Shown here in pieces: positions 1,135-55,012 of a stretch of 64,000 bases of DNA (its first letter is position 1; every line of letters begins with the position of its first letter). Where the stretch lies: the IMG/VR virus record IMGVR_UViG_3300010371_000001, positions 1-64,000 of that record. The stretch is one strand, 5' to 3'. The stretch is from a virus. The position numbers and the translations under genes were made by a program. The notes under the pieces were generated by a model. That model did not search any database. It saw only the letters and a program-made list of their open reading frames with translations, and was not told the origin of the DNA.

Positions 1135-1899
1135 ATGTTGACCCAAGAGCGCAAAGACCAACTGGAATCAGCCTATCAGGCGAATATCACCGCTGGACGC
1201 GCGCCCTATGCGGGCGTGATCATCCGCAATACCGAAGAATTGACATGGATTTACAATCAGCGGAATTGGTCGTCTCGCTTTTGGTTTGAAAGCGATAAAT
1301 CGCGGCCCGATCTGTCACGCGCCAATCTGTCACGCGCCAATCTGTCAGACGCCGATCTGTCAGACGCCGATCTGTCACGCGCCGATCTGTCACGCGCCGA
1401 TCTGTCACGCGCCAATCTGTCAGACGCCGATCTGTCAGACGCCGATCTGTCAGACGCCGATCTGTCACGCGCCGATCTGTCAGACGCCGATCTGTCACGC
1501 GCCGATCTGAGTGCGATCAAATCCGATATCTATGACATCGTGGATCTGGTTCCGCTCGATTTACCCTACATGGTTGCGGCGCTGAAAGCGGGGACCGTGG
1601 ACGGCTCAACGTATCGCTCAGATTGTAATCAGGGATGCCTCGTGGGGACATTGGAGATCAGCGCGAAGCGACGGATCGCCAGCAACCCTGACCTGGACAT
1701 GCCCCACATTCCCCACAATTCATCCCGCCCCGCCGAACGCTGGTTTCTTGCCATACGGCCTGGCATGACGCCAGAGAATAGTCAGATTGTTGCTTGGACG
1801 GTGCAGATCCTAGAAGAGCGTCTGGCGTTCTATGATCGCATTGCCGCCATCTGGTCTAAACCAGCGACTGCGGCGGCGGTGGAGTCCGTCACGGAATAA
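1135..1899 (+). CDS. pentapeptide repeat protein
   Basis: 14 A(D/N)LS(R/D)-type repeats; C-terminal GTVDGSTY..CLVGTL..SSRPAERWFLAI domain; GAGAGGG RBS. Confidence 0.9.
   Translation: MLTQERKDQLESAYQANITAGRAPYAGVIIRNTEELTWIYNQRNWSSRFWFESDKSRPDLSRANLSRANLSDADLSDADLSRADLSRADLSRANLSDADLSDADLSDADLSRADLSDADLSRADLSAIKSDIYDIVDLVPLDLPYMVAALKAGTVDGSTYRSDCNQGCLVGTLEISAKRRIASNPDLDMPHIPHNSSRPAERWFLAIRPGMTPENSQIVAWTVQILEERLAFYDRIAAIWSKPATAAAVESVTE
1306..1515 (+). repeat. 15-bp tandem repeat (GCC[A/G]ATCTGTCA[CGC/GAC]), ~14 units
   Basis: Directly visible; encodes the pentapeptide array. Confidence 0.95.
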
Positions 1900-7394: not shown

Positions 7395-7978
7395 CCTGTA
7401 TCGTAGGCTTGACACATGCCGGTGGCGTGACGTTGGGAGCGGACAGCCAGGTTACTACTGGCTGGGTACACGCGCCGCTGGCTGATTCACAGGGCAAGAT
7501 CTTTCGCGTGGGGAAGATGCTGATTGGCGGTACAGGGACGTTGCGCCAATTGCAATTGGCGCAATATGCCTTGGCACTTCCTGAACATCCATCGGATATG
7601 GCGTGCATGACCTATCTCGTCACGCGCTTTGTGGACGCCATGCGTGATTGTCTCAAAAACGGTGGCCATGCCACCAAAGATAAAGACCAGGAAAGCACCC
7701 CAGGTGCTTTGCTGATAGCCTATTATGGTCGGCTGTTTAATCTCGCCTCTGACTATGCCGTCCAAGAAACTGCCGACTCCTACTATGCCGTCGGCTCAGG
7801 TCAAGAGGTGGCTCTAGGTTCGCTGCACACCAGCGCCCGCATGGGGGAACTGTTGTCGCCAGAGAAGCGCGTCACCTGGGCATTGGAAGCAGCGGCGACG
7901 TTCAGCAATGGCGTGGGCGGGCCATTCGTGATTGAGACACTGGCGAATGAAGCTGCTAAAGAGAGTGAGGCCGCATGA
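7391..7978 (+). CDS. HslV/proteasome beta-like Ntn threonine peptidase
   Basis: M-T-CIVG..GADSQ...KIF...AVGSG..ALGSL...ALEAA. Confidence 0.85.
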   Translation: MTCIVGLTHAGGVTLGADSQVTTGWVHAPLADSQGKIFRVGKMLIGGTGTLRQLQLAQYALALPEHPSDMACMTYLVTRFVDAMRDCLKNGGHATKDKDQESTPGALLIAYYGRLFNLASDYAVQETADSYYAVGSGQEVALGSLHTSARMGELLSPEKRVTWALEAAATFSNGVGGPFVIETLANEAAKESEAA

Positions 7979-8178
7979 TGGCGAAACAGACGGCGAAGAG
8001 TCGCGCGGCGCAGGGGAAAGCGCCGCAGACGCGCAAGGTAAAGACAACACCATACACCGCAGAGGCATGTGCCATTGCATCGCTGAACGCGCCCATCACG
8101 CTGCGCACGGTAAAACTGGCGCACTTGCTGGCGCGCATCACCGCCGAACACATCACCACTCTGCCAAAGGCCAGCTAA
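7975..8178 (+). CDS. small basic protein
   Basis: Coupled by GAGGCCGCATGA overlap. Confidence 0.5.
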   Translation: MMAKQTAKSRAAQGKAPQTRKVKTTPYTAEACAIASLNAPITLRTVKLAHLLARITAEHITTLPKAS

Positions 8179-8180
8179 CG

Positions 8181-9836
8181 ATGAAACCACAGAAGCAGGA
8201 TCTCCTGCATTTTCAGGGCGTGCCGCCACCAGGGGACGGGGCGCGCGTCGCCACCTACCGGCGGTATAGCTCCGGAAAGCAGAAGGCCACCACGTTGCAG
8301 AAGCAGCAAGATAGCATTGAAGAATCGCTCGATGAACTGCATCCAACGTGGCGCATCCTGCCTGACGGCGAATACGCCGATCCGAAAAAGACGGCGCGCG
8401 ATGACACATTCGAGAATCGCCCCGGCTTACAGCAACTCATTGCCGACGCTCAGGCGGGGAAATTTGACGTCGTGATTGTCGAGTCTGTGGATCGGTGGTC
8501 GCGTTCATCGGCGGTGACGTGGAACACACTGGCCATCCTACATGCGTGTGGCGTCTACTGGATGACCACTGACGGCTTCGATAGCGTCACTATCCGGCAG
8601 GAAGGCACGTCGGCATCATTCGCCCACGCCGCAGAGGCAGCGGCCCAGGTGTCGCGCACGATCAGCAAGAAGGTGGTCAGGGGCAAGCGCACGCGCACGA
8701 AACAGGGCTATCATGGCAGCCACGCACCCTTTGGTTATCAGCGTGGCGAACTGGATGAGAATAACCGGCGCAACTATGAGCCGCACCCGGATCTCTTTCC
8801 GGCGCTGGCCATCATCCGTGATATGAGCATCGCAGGGCAAACGGATCAGGACATCGCCAGCGAGTTGAACCGTCAAGGGTACTACGCGCCGCCAACGGAC
8901 CAGGGCCAGCGTGTGAAGGGGTTGCATGATGAGTCAGTGCAGCACATGGATAAGCGACCGATTACCGCGCGTCTCATTGTCGGCACCCGGCACAATCGCT
9001 TCTATGTACGCTTCCAACCTGATAGCGACCGGGGTATCACCTGGACAAAGCGCGAGGGCGTGGAACGTGAGGGACGCCACGTGGCGGCATGGACGCAAGA
9101 GGAATGGGCGGCGATGCAAGCGGCAAAGCGACCGATGCAGAATCGCCCAAACGCCACGCCGCGCGCCCGGCGCACCTGGCCGTTCGGCGGCATCATGATT
9201 TGCCAGCAATGCGGACTGGTGATGCAGTGCGCCGCACATAAACGCTACAAAGAGCGGGGCGACCTTCTCTGCTACTATCAATGCCGCCGAACAAGCGCAT
9301 GCCGTCCGCAATCCGTCCGGGCTGAATACCTGGAAGATGCATTCGGCGCGCTCTTGGAACATCTGGATGATGCAGGATGGCGCGAGACACTGACGGCACT
9401 GGTACAGCAAGACGTGGAACCACCGCCTGACCACGCCGCCGAACGCGAGCGGCTAGAGACGGCCATCCGGCGCGAGAATATCAAACTTGATGCGGGCGGC
9501 ATCACAGAAGCAGAGTACAAGCGCAATGTGAAGCGGCTACGCGCGGATCTCGCTCGCGTCCCTATACCGCGCGCCAATCCGGTGCAAGAGCGCCAGCACC
9601 AGGCCGCAGAGACGATGGCAACCATCGCAAAATGCTGGCAAGCCGCGCCACTCACCGATAAGCGCGAGATGACGACCCTACTCCTGCAACAACCCGGTGC
9701 GGTGTACGACCGGCGCGATAAGCGCATCGTTGCGGTGCGACCGCATGATGAATTCGCGCTGGTGTTTCAGGCGGCACTCGGATGGGAAATGCGGGATAGT
9801 TGGCTCTGGCATCCAGCACAAAGGGAGGTCGCATGA
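8181..9836 (+). CDS. large serine recombinase (integrase-like)
   Basis: YRRYSS catalytic motif, RPGLQQL, DRWSR, PFGY recombinase domain, CQQCG..YYQC..C Zn ribbon, coiled coil. Confidence 0.92.
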   Translation: MKPQKQDLLHFQGVPPPGDGARVATYRRYSSGKQKATTLQKQQDSIEESLDELHPTWRILPDGEYADPKKTARDDTFENRPGLQQLIADAQAGKFDVVIVESVDRWSRSSAVTWNTLAILHACGVYWMTTDGFDSVTIRQEGTSASFAHAAEAAAQVSRTISKKVVRGKRTRTKQGYHGSHAPFGYQRGELDENNRRNYEPHPDLFPALAIIRDMSIAGQTDQDIASELNRQGYYAPPTDQGQRVKGLHDESVQHMDKRPITARLIVGTRHNRFYVRFQPDSDRGITWTKREGVEREGRHVAAWTQEEWAAMQAAKRPMQNRPNATPRARRTWPFGGIMICQQCGLVMQCAAHKRYKERGDLLCYYQCRRTSACRPQSVRAEYLEDAFGALLEHLDDAGWRETLTALVQQDVEPPPDHAAERERLETAIRRENIKLDAGGITEAEYKRNVKRLRADLARVPIPRANPVQERQHQAAETMATIAKCWQAAPLTDKREMTTLLLQQPGAVYDRRDKRIVAVRPHDEFALVFQAALGWEMRDSWLWHPAQREVA

Positions 9837-19892: not shown

Positions 19893-20197
19893 CCGAGACC
19901 GAACGCGAGGCATGGGCCGCATTGGAGGCAGGCATCGTGGAAGATGCGGTGGCAGCGGGGCTGCTGAAAGAGCTTCAGCGCATGTGGGCAGAACACGCCA
20001 TCCATGCCTATGAGAAGCGTCCCATGCAGATAGAGCAAGCGCCATACAGCAGAGAGACGCCGTATCGTTGCCCGAACTGTGACGGGACAGGCGAGCGGGT
20101 ATACCCAGCATCACCGAAAGCCACCACGTCAACCATCCTCTATCCGCAGCCGCAGCAGTGCCACTCATGCCAGGGGAAGGGCGTGCTATGGCGATGA
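19889..20197 (+). CDS. protein with DnaJ-type CxxCxGxG Zn finger
   Basis: CPNCDGTG...CHSCQGKG. Confidence 0.65.
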   Translation: MTETEREAWAALEAGIVEDAVAAGLLKELQRMWAEHAIHAYEKRPMQIEQAPYSRETPYRCPNCDGTGERVYPASPKATTSTILYPQPQQCHSCQGKGVLWR

Positions 20198-20514
20198 GTG
20201 AAGATGAACCAGTGATCCTGGGGCCGGAACACATGCATATCCTGCATGGCCTAATGGGCTTCCTACGGCAAACATACATCAGCACAGAAATGCTACGGAA
20301 CTTCGATCCGGTGCTGACCATCGACTATGTGGATATCCACCTGCCTAACGTCCCCATGACGTTGCGCGTGCCGATTGCCCTGGATGGGTCGTTTGCTCAG
20401 CAGGTACTCGATATCGCCCCGCCGAAAAGACAGCAGGTGAAGAAGGTAGACAAGCTAGGGCTGTTGGCACCGCCGAAAGCGGCGTTACCGAGCGGCGATG
20501 ATAATGAACGATAA
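20188..20514 (+). CDS. hypothetical protein
   Basis: Overlapping operon ORF. Confidence 0.55.
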   Translation: MAMSEDEPVILGPEHMHILHGLMGFLRQTYISTEMLRNFDPVLTIDYVDIHLPNVPMTLRVPIALDGSFAQQVLDIAPPKRQQVKKVDKLGLLAPPKAALPSGDDNER

Positions 20515-20936
20515 TGGCAGCAGACACAGCGACAGGAAGGAAGCAGAGCGATGAGCAATCCAACCAAGACACGCAAACTGAAGATCATCAGCGATGGGAA
20601 TACGGGCCACGTGTTGTGGTGGCGGTGACGCCGACTATGCCCATCCCGAATGAGGAAACATCGCCAATCTTCGCCGTGGGATCTACGGGATTCATGCGCC
20701 AAGCGCCCCAGCCACCAGCCGCCCCGCCAGTGTCGCTGATCATCCAATGCCAGCGGCGCTTTGCTCATACTCAGGTTCGATTGCGTGAATTTCAACAATT
20801 GCGCAATGACCTGTATGGCGATCAGCAATTCTTTGAGCAAATGAAAGCACAAGGGACCGCCGAAGAGCAGACGGACATCGCATCCTATATTGAGGCAATT
20901 CAGCGGGCGATTGGCGATATCCAGCAGGCTGCATGA
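20514..20936 (+). CDS. hypothetical protein
   Basis: TAATG overlap. Confidence 0.55.
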   Translation: MAADTATGRKQSDEQSNQDTQTEDHQRWEYGPRVVVAVTPTMPIPNEETSPIFAVGSTGFMRQAPQPPAAPPVSLIIQCQRRFAHTQVRLREFQQLRNDLYGDQQFFEQMKAQGTAEEQTDIASYIEAIQRAIGDIQQAA

Positions 20937-20951
20937 CGATGAATGGAGCGC

Positions 20952-21154
20952 GTCAGTACAGAAGAACAGGCGCGCTCCGCTAAGCCCGAAAAATGGCTTA
21001 AATCCTAGACTTTTCCGTACACGCACTGGACAGTGTGTGTACACTAACGAGGTGATAGCGGTGGCGAGGCGAAAAAAGTCTGTCCCAGAGCGGCATGACG
21101 GCATACGGGCGGCTATTTATTTACGGGTCAGTACAGAAGAACAGGCGCGCTCCG
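20952..21154 (+). repeat. 28-bp exact direct repeat GTCAGTACAGAAGAACAGGCGCGCTCCG (20952-20979, 21127-21154)
   Basis: Directly visible; second copy encodes VSTEEQARS of the recombinase active site. Confidence 0.95.
21017..21042. promoter_or_regulatory. 12-2-12 inverted repeat, serine-recombinase crossover/operator-like site
   Basis: GTACACGCACTG-GA-CAGTGTGTGTAC (11/12 match), overlapping a TACACT -10 in front of the recombinase. Confidence 0.7.
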
Positions 21155-21873
21155 GTTTGGGCATCGAAGCGCAACGTGATCGCGCGATGGCCGCGCTGCG
21201 TTTACGAGATTGGGAATTCATTGGCGAATATGCCGATGAAGGGATCAGTGGTGCCAAAGATGAGAAGAAGCGGCCAGGGTTAGCACGGTTATTAGCTGAT
21301 TGTGAAGCAGGGCGCGTGGATGCAGTGGTGTTTCTTGACCTCTCGCGTTTGGGGCGTCGCACGCTGCTTATTCTCGACTTGGTGGATCGATTGGCAAAGA
21401 TGGATGTGCAGCTCGTCTCGTGCAAAGAAAATATGGACACTTCAACTGCGATGGGTAAGGCCATGTTAGGCTTCATCGCTGTGTTAGCACAGATGGAGCG
21501 CGACCTGGCGAGTGAGCGTACCCGCGCTGCATTAGCAGAGGCGGGCAAGCGTACAGGCGATAAGGGCGGCGGTGTTCCCTATGGCTATCGGCGCATTAGT
21601 AGCGTGATTATGATTGACGAGAGTGAAGCATCTGTCGTGCGTCAAATATTCTTGTGGCATAGCACGGGCGCATCTTTGCGAGAGGTAGCGTTCTGCTTAC
21701 AAGATCGCGGTGTGCCGCCACGAGGGGGAGACCGTTGGCACCATAGCGCAATACAGTGTATTCTAGCTAATGAGGCAGCGTATCGCGGTGGGAACCGTGA
21801 TAAGAGTGAGGCGCGATGGCCAGTGATTCTTGATGAGGATCTTCCGGGACGTGTGCGACCGTTAGCTTCGTAA
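21061..21873 (+). CDS. serine recombinase (resolvase + recombinase domains, no Zn ribbon)
   Basis: AAIYLRVSTEEQ, DEGISG, RPGL, LSRLGR, ERTRAAL, VPYGY; GAGGTG RBS before GTG. Confidence 0.92.
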   Translation: MARRKKSVPERHDGIRAAIYLRVSTEEQARSGLGIEAQRDRAMAALRLRDWEFIGEYADEGISGAKDEKKRPGLARLLADCEAGRVDAVVFLDLSRLGRRTLLILDLVDRLAKMDVQLVSCKENMDTSTAMGKAMLGFIAVLAQMERDLASERTRAALAEAGKRTGDKGGGVPYGYRRISSVIMIDESEASVVRQIFLWHSTGASLREVAFCLQDRGVPPRGGDRWHHSAIQCILANEAAYRGGNRDKSEARWPVILDEDLPGRVRPLAS

Positions 21874-21926
21874 GCTAACAAAGGAAAAATACCAGACATC
21901 CACCACAAGAGAGAGGGGGAGCGAGC

Positions 21927-22241
21927 ATGGCGACCGCAGAGGAACTGATCACCCTGCACCGTGACGGGCATGTGGGCATGGTCGAGGTGGCGCGCGTGGT
22001 CACATCCTATGATAAGGAAGGCAAAGACGATATCGTGCTTGATGTCCTGCTATTGGACGCAGAGGCGCGCACCGAAGGCGACGACGTGGCGTTGACGGAT
22101 ATCTATGTGGCTGGTGATGGTGATGTGTTACAGGATCACGTCTACCTGAATGCCGACGCCATGACACAAATGGCTGTCGCCTGGCTAGGGCGGCAAGGGT
22201 ACACGGTGACGCCACCAGCGACGGCGCGGGGGAGTGAGTGA
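21927..22241 (+). CDS. hypothetical protein
   Basis: GAGGGGGAG RBS. Confidence 0.6.
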   Translation: MATAEELITLHRDGHVGMVEVARVVTSYDKEGKDDIVLDVLLLDAEARTEGDDVALTDIYVAGDGDVLQDHVYLNADAMTQMAVAWLGRQGYTVTPPATARGSE

Positions 22242-22609
22242 TGCTGAAACGCATTCGCCAACGGATTCATGAGTGGGACGCGCACCGACACCAGCGCGTC
22301 ATCGAGCAGATAGGCATGGCGTTTGCAGAAGGGCTGTTGCGGGGACTCGGTGTGCCTGCCGCTGATATGCCAGCGAAACTCAAAGCCGTTCAGGATGGGC
22401 GCATTCGTTCTGAGGCTGCGGCACTGAAAATGCATGTGTTGCTGCGAAATATTTACGGCTACTCATGCGGTCTGAATCTTCTCCATTATTACGCATCCAC
22501 CAAGAACGCACGAGCAGAAGATATCTTCAATGAGGCATATCGGCAACTCTGTACAGGGGATGACCAATTCATCCACGAGCTGCGGACATTCCATAGCAAT
22601 ATGCTATAA
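22238..22609 (+). CDS. hypothetical protein
   Basis: GTGA overlap. Confidence 0.55.
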   Translation: MMLKRIRQRIHEWDAHRHQRVIEQIGMAFAEGLLRGLGVPAADMPAKLKAVQDGRIRSEAAALKMHVLLRNIYGYSCGLNLLHYYASTKNARAEDIFNEAYRQLCTGDDQFIHELRTFHSNML

Positions 22610-22642: not shown

Positions 22643-22909
22643 ATGTCCACTCCTGCCCCCCGCTTTGAACCTGGCGAGATGAAACGCCTGCGCAAGTCTG
22701 TTTACCTCACCCAAGAGAAGGTTGCTGAGCGCATGGGATACAGCGCCCCCTGGCAACTCAAGCGCTGGGAACGCGGCAGGGACGTCATCGGCACTGTTCG
22801 TGCTGACCAGTTCCTCGCCATCATTGAGCAAGAGCAGGAACGATTGGGTGCCGCCGACGCTGCTTTCCAGCGCCGCAAAGAAGCGATACACCAGCGCCTT
22901 GCCTCTTAG
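22643..22909 (+). CDS. XRE-family HTH regulator
   Basis: MKRLRKSVYLTQEKVAERMGYSAPWQLKRWERG; AAGGAG RBS. Confidence 0.85.
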   Translation: MSTPAPRFEPGEMKRLRKSVYLTQEKVAERMGYSAPWQLKRWERGRDVIGTVRADQFLAIIEQEQERLGAADAAFQRRKEAIHQRLAS

Positions 22910-54980: not shown

Positions 54981-55012
54981 TTCTTTTTCCTGCTAAGCAG
55001 AAGCGGAAGTAC

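What the first reader, a model, noticed from the sequence alone, without database searches (positions are those of the whole stretch)
20943..21154. Exact 28-bp copy of the recombinase's catalytic-serine codons placed upstream of its own promoter
Seen: GTCAGTACAGAAGAACAGGCGCGCTCCG occurs at 20952 and 21127 (175 bp apart). The second copy encodes the active-site VSTEEQARS. The first is in frame in a 21-codon ORF, 20943-21008 (MERVSTEEQARSAKPEKWLKS), and forms a hairpin (GGAGCGCGTC/GGCGCGCTCC). The repeats bracket the promoter, the 26-bp dyad and the start codon. Inference: recombination between copies would delete the promoter and first strand (an off switch); alternatively an active-site mimic peptide, a regulatory RNA, or a scar from a local duplication or template switch.
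Basis: partly seen in the sequence, partly recalled or inferred. Interest (0 to 1): 0.7.

Follow-up and report, generated by a model that had tools for sequence, protein, structure and literature searches.

The report
Stray 28-base copy of recombinase codons
A soil phage carries an exact 28-base copy of its small recombinase gene's active-site codons 175 bases upstream of the original. It is real DNA, but it most likely marks an old DNA-repair or copying accident rather than a switch or a regulator.

Summary
An exact 28-bp direct repeat lies at 20952-20979 and 21127-21154. It is the longest dispersed exact repeat in this complete 102,273-bp phage genome, and none is expected by chance.

- **Copy 2** encodes RVSTEEQARS, including the catalytic serine, in a 270-aa small serine recombinase (21061-21873).
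- **Copy 1** is intergenic, starting 16 nt after the upstream gene's stop. It sits inside a GC-rich hairpin (-21.2 kcal/mol).
- **Real, not an artefact.** An independent assembly spans both copies. Contigs from two other soil studies cross copy 1.
- **Not kept exact.** Those two soil strains carry a C>T change inside copy 1. It turns the mimic peptide's Thr into Ile.
- **Not a family feature.** None of about 240 related recombinase loci (51% identity or less) has such a self-copy.
- **No signal found.** I found no sigma-70-type promoter, no U-tract terminator, no Rfam family and no deletion joint.
- **Likely origin.** The 7 nt left of copy 1 are the reverse complement of its own right end. All 35 new bases can therefore be explained as a templated copy plus a snap-back.

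Best reading: an unselected templated-insertion scar, at most reused as an RNA hairpin. The repeats do bracket a 26-bp 12-2-12 dyad, which looks like the recombinase family's own binding site. Interest is low.

The parts
20952..20979 (+). Copy 1 of the exact 28-bp repeat. It is intergenic and starts 16 nt after the stop codon of the upstream ORF.
   Evidence: Contigs from independent soil runs X2 and X4 cross it, both with C>T at 20959.
21127..21154 (+). Copy 2 of the repeat: codons V23-S32 (VSTEEQARS plus the first base of the Gly codon) of the small serine recombinase, including the catalytic serine S24.
   Evidence: It aligns with the TP901-1 integrase catalytic domain. An X3 contig covers it unchanged.
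20945..20978 (+). GC-rich stem-loop: a 10-bp stem with one G-U pair and a 14-nt loop. The left arm's first 7 nt (GGAGCGC, 20945-20951) lie outside the repeat and are the reverse complement of 20972-20978. No U-tract follows.
   Evidence: I17. (-21.2 kcal/mol, z -3.9; the copy 2 context does not fold, -6 kcal/mol, z +0.8). (no terminator called). (about 1% of 46-nt windows in this genome fold as well).
20943..21008 (+). 21-codon ORF that reads copy 1 in the recombinase's codon register. It has no Shine-Dalgarno sequence, and the G of its ATG is the first base of the hairpin stem. Probably not a gene.
   Evidence: The variant at 20959 changes Thr to Ile in this ORF.
20981..21000 (+). Second small hairpin (6-bp stem, 8-nt loop) directly after copy 1.
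21017..21042 (.). 26-bp 12-2-12 dyad (GTACACGCACTG GA CAGTGTGTGTAC). It is the likely binding or crossover site, or operator, of the small recombinase, and occurs once in the genome.
   Evidence: The same GT[ACT]CA-N16-TG[GAT]AC geometry lies upstream of the gene in 8 of 239 family loci (one is this genome's own) and in 0 of 239 control regions. The X2 variant T>C at 21036 makes it a perfect palindrome.
21061..21873 (+). Small serine recombinase, 270 aa (GTG start after GAGGTGA). It has a Resolvase catalytic domain plus the first half of the 'Recombinase' DNA-binding domain, and no zinc ribbon.
20514..20936 (+). Upstream ORF (140 aa, no known family). Copy 1 and its hairpin sit in its 3' flank.

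Best explanation
Copy 1 is an unselected scar of local DNA copying. At some point the DNA between the upstream gene and the recombinase gene was broken or its replication stalled. The free end primed briefly on the recombinase gene 175 bp away and copied 28 nt, from 21154 back to 21127. It then folded back on itself and copied 7 more nt from its own new end, giving GGAGCGC, before it was rejoined. One such event accounts for the exact direct repeat, its sharp edges, the abutting inverted repeat, the hairpin, and the chance ATG at the junction that opens the 21-codon ORF. The scar has been carried since then. At most the resulting stem-loop now acts as an RNA hairpin in the 3' flank of the upstream gene. 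The catalytic-site codons were copied by accident, not because of what they encode.

Shown: the repeat, the hairpin, its absence from relatives, and a substitution in copy 1 in other strains. Inferred: the copy-plus-snap-back pathway and the neutrality.
For: - **Sharp edges.** Identity is 28/28, then drops at once to no similarity on both sides. That is not the pattern of a decayed duplication or a gene remnant.
- **No coding remnant.** In the copy's coding register the left flank has stop codons. Neither flank resembles recombinase sequence.
- **Inverted neighbour.** The 7 nt immediately left of the copy are the reverse complement of the copy's own right end (I17). All 35 new bases (20945-20979) therefore derive from the 28-mer. 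Repair scars with direct (loop-out) and inverted (snap-back) templated insertions are described in PMC2943611. Template switching at quasipalindromes occurs in E. coli (PMC7202029).
- **Not a family feature.** Of 167 recombinase motifs checked in 164 loci, only this genome's own three had an upstream self-copy longer than 13 bp.
- **Exactness not maintained.** Contigs from two independent soil studies (X2, X4) carry C>T at 20959 inside copy 1.
- **No function signal.** There is no sigma-70-type promoter or U-tract terminator and no Rfam family. The codons of the 28-mer are ordinary for this genome.
- **Not an artefact.** A second assembler's 41.8-kb contig spans both copies with no differences. 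X2 and X4 contigs run from the upstream gene through copy 1 and the dyad into the recombinase start.
Against: - Conservation at short range is therefore untested.
- The hairpin is strong for its composition (z -3.9). The only change seen in copy 1 lies in its loop, so a selected hairpin is not excluded.
- The single mismatch that ends the repeat on the left (C at 20951, G in copy 2) is the base that pairs in the stem. That could reflect selection for the stem.
- Junction microhomology is only 1-2 nt.
- The described templated-insertion scars are mostly shorter and come mainly from eukaryotic systems.
- One substitution in 28 bp at about 0.5% strain divergence is not statistically informative.
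Confidence: 0.6

Rival explanations
1. The copy has been put to use as an RNA stem-loop. In the long rightward transcript, the hairpin at 20945-20978, with the small one at 20981-21000, protects the 3' end of the upstream message or lowers read-through into the recombinase gene. The origin is still a local copy, but the structure is now under selection.
For: - The hairpin is stable: -21.2 kcal/mol, z -3.9, and no shuffle out of 200 folds as well.
- It begins 8 nt after the upstream stop codon.
- The natural variant at 20959 falls in the apical loop and leaves the stem intact.
- The base that ends the repeat on the left is the one needed for pairing.
Against: - No U-tract follows it. This genome's clear terminators (for example near 55003, 70105 and 77932) have one.
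- About 1% of all 46-nt windows in this GC-rich genome fold as stably.
- No Rfam match.
- No related locus could be compared for stem conservation.
Confidence: 0.15
2. The two identical 28-bp elements are protein-binding sites that flank the crossover site or operator. They would act as accessory sites for the recombinase or an architectural protein, as res subsites or the gal and lac operator pairs do. They would loop the 175 bp to control the recombinase gene or to shape the synapse.
For: - They bracket the 26-bp dyad, which looks like the family's cognate site.
- The 28-mer contains GTACAG, which opens several relatives' half-sites, and it resembles a Ktedonobacterales relative's half-site.
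- Precedent, from established knowledge: gal OE/OI and lac O1/O2 place one operator inside the coding region.
Against: - The 28-mer matches this phage's own half-site at only 5 of 12 positions (GTACA).
- It has no dyad symmetry of its own.
- The natural variant hits the C of GTACAG.
- Relatives that have dyads have no flanking repeat pair.
- AGT-ACA at the Ser-Thr codons is not enriched in close family members.
- 175 bp is not a whole number of helical turns at 10.5 bp per turn.
Confidence: 0.08
3. The pair is a built-in off-switch. Recombination or slippage between the copies deletes 175 bp. That removes the dyad, the ribosome-binding site, the start codon and the first 22 codons (the basic N-terminal tail and strand beta-1). 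It leaves an in-frame, beta-1-less recombinase coupled to the upstream gene.
For: - Both copies are in the same codon register, and an ATG lies 9 nt before copy 1, so the deletion product would be an open frame.
- 28 bp is near the minimum length for homologous recombination (established knowledge, recalled from memory).
Against: - No joint between the copies appears in any of four runs. These were contigs, which drop rare variants, so this is weak evidence.
- The arrangement persists in soils sampled from 2017 to 2025.
- The loss would be rare and irreversible, so it would not be a regulated switch.
- Exact identity is already broken in the X2 and X4 strains.
- Relatives lack the arrangement.
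Confidence: 0.05
4. Copy 1 is what remains of an earlier recombinase gene, replaced when a new recombinase module recombined in at the conserved catalytic-motif sequence.
For: - The locus is mosaic in the population. Contigs from other soils diverge from the window near 20583-20608.
- In run X3 the gene's 5' half is about 99.7% identical while its 3' half is about 92% identical.
- The catalytic motif is the most conserved stretch of the family.
Against: - Neither flank of copy 1 keeps any recombinase coding signal. The upstream gene's stop codon is 16 nt away.
- At least two further precise deletions would be needed.
- It does not explain the abutting inverted 7-mer.
Confidence: 0.07
5. The 21-codon ORF is translated, by re-initiation after the upstream gene, into a peptide that mimics the recombinase's active-site loop.
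For: - The ORF is open and reads copy 1 in the coding register.
- Its ATG is 6 nt after the upstream stop codon.
Against: - It has no Shine-Dalgarno sequence.
- The start codon is part of the hairpin stem.
- The X2/X4 variant changes the family-invariant Thr to Ile.
- No relative has such an ORF.
- A 9-residue loop removed from its fold has no known way to act on the enzyme (inference).
Confidence: 0.02

Closest known systems
Templated-insertion repair scars (synthesis-dependent microhomology-mediated end joining, loop-out and snap-back; PMC2943611, PMC5728401) and quasipalindrome template-switch mutations in E. coli (PMC7202029)
   Same: A short exact copy of nearby sequence is inserted at a new place. 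It has sharp edges and is joined to an inverted copy of its own end, which creates a hairpin. No function is required.
   Different: The direct part (28 nt) and the distance to the template (175 bp) are at the long end of what those studies describe. Those studies are mostly in flies, yeast and E. coli reporter genes, not phages. The event itself cannot be observed here.
res/hix-type sites of small serine recombinases (Tn3/gamma-delta res, Hin hix, Gin gix), placed just upstream of the recombinase gene and often autoregulating it
   Same: The 26-bp 12-2-12 dyad between the two copies has this geometry and position. It recurs in relatives of this recombinase.
   Different: This applies to the dyad, not to the 28-bp repeat. 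The repeat has no dyad symmetry and matches the half-site at only 5 of 12 bases. There is no second dyad in the genome, so no invertible or excisable segment is defined.
Operator pairs that bracket a promoter with one operator inside the coding region (gal OE/OI, lac O1/O2)
   Same: Two like sequences flank the gene's start, one of them inside the coding sequence.
   Different: No cognate binding protein, no palindromic operator and no promoter were found. Relatives lack the pair.
Short-direct-repeat deletion hotspots (deletions between short repeats, as in the classical lacI studies)
   Same: Two exact 28-bp direct repeats 175 bp apart are a substrate for slippage or recombination that deletes the interval.
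   Different: Those are mutational liabilities, not regulated switches. No deletion product was seen here.

Membership tests
Small serine recombinase (resolvase/invertase superfamily): the gene that holds copy 2 | Resolvase-type catalytic domain with the nucleophilic Ser in a Y-x-R-V-S-T-x-x-Q motif | tested here: met
   PF00239 scores E 4e-39 over residues 17-164. Y20, R22, S24, T25 and Q28 are invariant in 18 family members. The domain aligns with the TP901-1 integrase catalytic domain, 3bvp.
Small serine recombinase (resolvase/invertase superfamily): the gene that holds copy 2 | A dyad-symmetric crossover site of about 26-28 bp with a central dinucleotide, near the gene | tested here: met
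   A 12-2-12 dyad lies at 21017-21042. The same geometry occurs in 8 of 239 family loci against 0 of 239 control regions. Binding and cleavage were not tested.
Large serine integrase | Full Recombinase domain plus a zinc beta-ribbon and coiled-coil, about 450-700 aa | tested here: not met
   The protein has only profile positions 2-54 of 102 of PF07508, no PF13408, and 270 aa. Family members are 240-290 aa. The phage's separate large integrase is at 7932-9836.
res-like multi-subsite or enhancer architecture (the 28-mers as accessory recombinase sites) | Accessory sites carry recognisable copies of the recombinase half-site | tested here: not met
   The 28-mer matches the phage's own half-site at 5 of 12 positions. 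No half-site with 2 or fewer mismatches lies near either copy.
Invertible or excisable recombinase switch (hix/gix or skin-type) | Two copies of the recombinase crossover site bounding a segment | tested here: not met
   The dyad occurs once in the 102-kb genome with up to 3 mismatches. The 28-mers are not dyad-symmetric.
Templated-insertion or template-switch scar | The inserted bases are an exact copy (direct and/or inverted) of sequence nearby, with sharp edges | tested here: met
   28 of 28 bases are a direct copy of 21127-21154. The adjoining 7 nt are the reverse complement of 20972-20978. There is no flanking similarity.
Templated-insertion or template-switch scar | Absent from the ancestral state, that is, from relatives | tested here: inconclusive
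   It is absent from about 240 loci at 51% identity or less. The 65-86% relatives could not be fetched.
Templated-insertion or template-switch scar | Microhomology at the junctions | tested here: inconclusive
   There are only 1-2 nt: CG before each copy and a shared terminal G.
Intrinsic (Rho-independent) terminator | A GC-rich stem followed by a U-tract | tested here: not met
   The stem is present, but no T-run follows and the scan does not call it. Canonical examples with T-runs occur elsewhere in the genome.
Known RNA families (Rfam 15) | A match to a covariance model | tested here: not met
   No match at E of 1 or less in 20000-22500.

The most novel reading that the evidence does not exclude
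The two identical 28-bp elements are kept on purpose around the recombinase's crossover site. They would serve either as paired architectural sites that shape the synapse or loop out the gene's start, or as a homology pair that lets a fraction of genomes discard the site and the gene's start together. That would be a self-limiting serine recombinase.
Probability: 0.06. Interest if true: 0.55.

Novelty: new member of a known kind. Interest (0 to 1): 0.2.

Why it matters
It matters little as it stands. The finding shows that an eye-catching exact copy of active-site codons beside a gene's start can be a by-product of DNA repair or replication, and need not be a regulatory device.

It has modest value as a clean natural example of a combined direct-plus-inverted templated insertion in a phage genome. 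It also marks a locus where deletion between the copies could inactivate the recombinase.

The more useful by-product concerns the 26-bp dyad between the copies. It appears to be the conserved binding site of a large, uncharacterised family of recombinases of about 260 aa that have half a 'Recombinase' domain.

Tried and rejected
- **Closest relatives' DNA.** The contigs of the four closest homologues (86-65% identity) could not be read.
- **Phage records.** blastn of 20400-22300 against the GenBank phage collection found no match.
- **IMG/VR.** The single-protein scan found no relative. A 19-mer from the repeat had no exact match.
- **Synteny.** None of 11 neighbouring proteins recurs next to related recombinases, so intergenic regions could not be aligned.
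- **RNA evidence.** No RNA holder was listed among the sequencing runs. Expression was not tested.
- **Laid runs.** All four were Logan contigs, not raw reads. The absence of a deletion joint therefore says nothing about rare variants. No independent contig spans both copies. Parts without cover (X2 21087-21143; X3 20598-21120; X4 beyond 21086) are not evidence of absence.
- **Tandem duplication of a 175-bp unit.** Rejected, because the 147 bp after each copy are unrelated.
- **Target-site duplication by an inserted element.** Rejected, because the interval holds the gene's own essential N-terminus and binding site.
- **Diversity-generating retroelement repeat pair.** Rejected, because the copies are identical and only 28 bp long.
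- **Repeat duplication by a CRISPR integrase.** Rejected for the same reason as target-site duplication.
- **Translational bypass of the T4 gene 60 type.** Rejected, because the product would lack strand beta-1.
- **Third partial copy at 99858.** The 16-mer it shares with 21159 lies in an unrelated reading frame and context, so it is a chance match.
- **Assembly artefact.** Rejected.

Full report
**Setting.** The window is the first 64 kb of a complete virus record of 102,273 bp with 123-bp direct terminal repeats. The DNA is found in soil metagenomes. The region around the finding is a run of small rightward genes without known families. It contains a 270-aa serine recombinase at 21061-21873 and a helix-turn-helix protein at 22643-22909. 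A separate large serine integrase, with Resolvase, Recombinase and zinc-ribbon domains, lies at 7932-9836.

**The observation.** The 28-mer GTCAGTACAGAAGAACAGGCGCGCTCCG occurs at 20952-20979 and 21127-21154. Both copies are on the + strand, and no such match appears in 100 shuffles. It occurs nowhere else in the genome with up to three mismatches. Leaving aside a 15-bp tandem array at 1307-1509, it is the longest exact dispersed repeat in the genome. The next is 18 bp. The match continues for three more bases on the left with one mismatch, CGC against CGG. On both sides similarity then stops abruptly.

Copy 2 is codon-aligned with VSTEEQARS. Here S24 is the nucleophile of a Resolvase-type catalytic domain (PF00239, E 4e-39). 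Y20, R22, S24, T25 and Q28 are invariant in the family, and the domain aligns with the TP901-1 integrase catalytic domain.

Copy 1 starts 16 nt after the stop codon of the upstream 140-aa ORF.

**Is it real DNA?** Yes. A contig built by a different assembler from the probable source run spans 20300-22300 with no differences. Contigs from two other studies cross copy 1: X2 (2024 soil) and X4 (2025 soil). They run from the upstream gene through copy 1 and the dyad into the recombinase start, at 20764-21086 and 20886-21086. An X3 contig covers copy 2, at 21121-21427. No independent contig spans both copies.

**What the population data add.** Both X2 and X4 carry C>T at 20959, inside copy 1.
- The change breaks the exact identity.
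- It falls in the apical loop of the hairpin.
- It turns the short ORF's Thr into Ile, at the residue that is invariant in the real enzyme.
- It hits the C of the GTACAG word.

The duplication therefore predates the split of these strains, which differ by about 0.5%, and it is not being held exact. No joint between the copies was seen. All the material was contigs, which cannot show rare variants, so that test remains open.

**Relatives.** The recombinase belongs to a large family of proteins of 240-290 aa. They have a Resolvase domain plus only the first half of the 'Recombinase' domain (3,389 hits). The closest members are 86, 68, 66 and 65% identical. Scans of IMG/VR, metagenomes and genomes gave 240 loci at 51% identity or less. 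The check for an upstream self-copy was run on the viral and metagenome loci held at that point. Only this genome's own loci have an upstream copy of their catalytic-site codons longer than 13 bp. Neighbouring genes are not shared with any of the loci.

**What lies between the copies.** The 26-bp dyad at 21017-21042 has 12-bp arms around a 2-bp centre. Several relatives have a dyad of the same geometry at the same place. It opens with GT(A/C)CA and closes with TG(G/T)AC: 8 of 239 family loci (one of them this genome's own) against 0 of 239 control regions. In X2 a T>C change at 21036 makes the dyad a perfect palindrome. I read this as the family's own binding or crossover site. It occurs once in the genome and has no partner half-site. 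That fits autoregulation, multimer resolution, or a partner site on another replicon, but defines no invertible segment.

It concerns the dyad only. The 28-mer matches the phage's half-site at 5 of 12 positions and has no symmetry of its own.

**The hairpin.** The stem-loop at 20945-20978 folds at -21.2 kcal/mol, and none of 200 shuffles does as well. The same 28-mer in its coding context does not fold. The difference is made by the 7 nt GGAGCGC immediately left of copy 1. They are the reverse complement of the copy's own right end (I17). No U-tract follows, whereas clear stem-plus-U-tract terminators exist elsewhere in the genome. About 1% of all 46-nt windows in this GC-rich genome fold as stably. 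No Rfam family matches.

**Most likely mechanism (inference).** All 35 new bases (20945-20979) can be derived from the 28-mer in the gene. They are a direct copy of 28 nt followed by a fold-back that copies 7 nt of the new end. That is the signature of templated insertions made during break repair or after a stalled fork.
- Loop-out synthesis gives direct repeats and snap-back synthesis gives inverted repeats (PMC2943611).
- Template switching at imperfect inverted repeats is documented in E. coli (PMC7202029).

The ATG of the short ORF is then created by chance at the left junction, from the resident ...AAT plus the inserted G. A 175-bp tandem duplication, a target-site duplication and a remnant of an older recombinase gene each need extra events, or are contradicted by the flanks.

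**Rival readings.**
- **Selected RNA hairpin.** This remains possible. The stem is intact in the variants, and the base that ends the repeat on the left is the pairing base.
- **Paired protein-binding sites around the dyad.** Disfavoured by the poor half-site match, by the variant, and by the absence of such pairs in relatives. The codons used show no sign of selection at the nucleotide level.
- **Deletion switch.** It is geometrically possible. Both copies are in the same codon register, so a deletion would leave an open frame lacking strand beta-1, joined closely to the upstream gene. The loss would be rare and irreversible. It is unsupported by any joint, and the arrangement has persisted in soils from 2017 to 2025.
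- **Mimic peptide.** It lacks a ribosome-binding site, starts inside the stem, and is altered in the variants.

**Verdict.** The repeat is real and far beyond chance. The weight of evidence says it is a repair or copying scar rather than a device. I put 0.6 on that reading, 0.15 on a co-opted hairpin, and the rest on the other rivals. The interest score is 0.2. The decisive missing pieces are the DNA of the four closest relatives and raw-read mapping across the pair.

Noticed in passing
window 21017-21042; loci L006, L007, L019, L027, L127, L166, L170: The 12-2-12 dyad upstream of the small recombinase shares its geometry and outer bases (GT[ACT]CA-N16-TG[GAT]AC) with dyads at the same place in relatives: 8 of 239 loci against 0 of 239 control regions. 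A soil variant (T>C at 21036) makes it a perfect palindrome. It is probably the cognate site of an uncharacterised family of serine recombinases of about 260 aa.
   Followed up: partly
window 21061-21873: In the conserved D-R-L-x-R stretch of the catalytic domain, this protein and two relatives (P0002, P0049) read L-S-R-L-G-R, with the Asp two residues earlier. Most family members read L-D-R-L-G-R. This may be a shifted acidic residue in the active-site pocket.
   Followed up: no
window 20583-20608 and 21427-21713: The locus is mosaic in soil populations. Contigs from runs X3 and X4 diverge from the window at about 20583-20598, inside the upstream ORF. In X3 the recombinase gene's 5' half differs at 1 of 307 bases, but the next 285 bases differ at 23.
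   Followed up: no
window 21086: Contigs from two independent soil runs (X2 and X4) both end at exactly 21086. X2 resumes at 21144 and X3 starts at 21121. This is unexplained. It could be a branch point between co-existing variants of the recombinase N-terminus.
   Followed up: no
window 22209-22243: A stretch of about 35 bp holds a strong GGGGGAG ribosome-binding site and the start of the gene at 22238. In runs X2, X3 and X4 it occurs in several different sequence contexts, with unlike DNA on both sides and at higher depth. It may be a conserved junction sequence where modules are exchanged.
   Followed up: no
window 1307-1509: A tandem array of 13.5 copies of a 15-bp unit (consensus CCGATCTGTCACGCG, 91% matches) lies about 1.3 kb from the genome end. 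It could be iterons or a partition or packaging site.
   Followed up: no
window 7541-7564: A perfect 24-bp palindrome (TTGCGCCAATTGCAATTGGCGCAA) lies about 370 bp upstream of the large serine integrase ORF (7932-9836). It is a candidate operator or attachment-site element.
   Followed up: no
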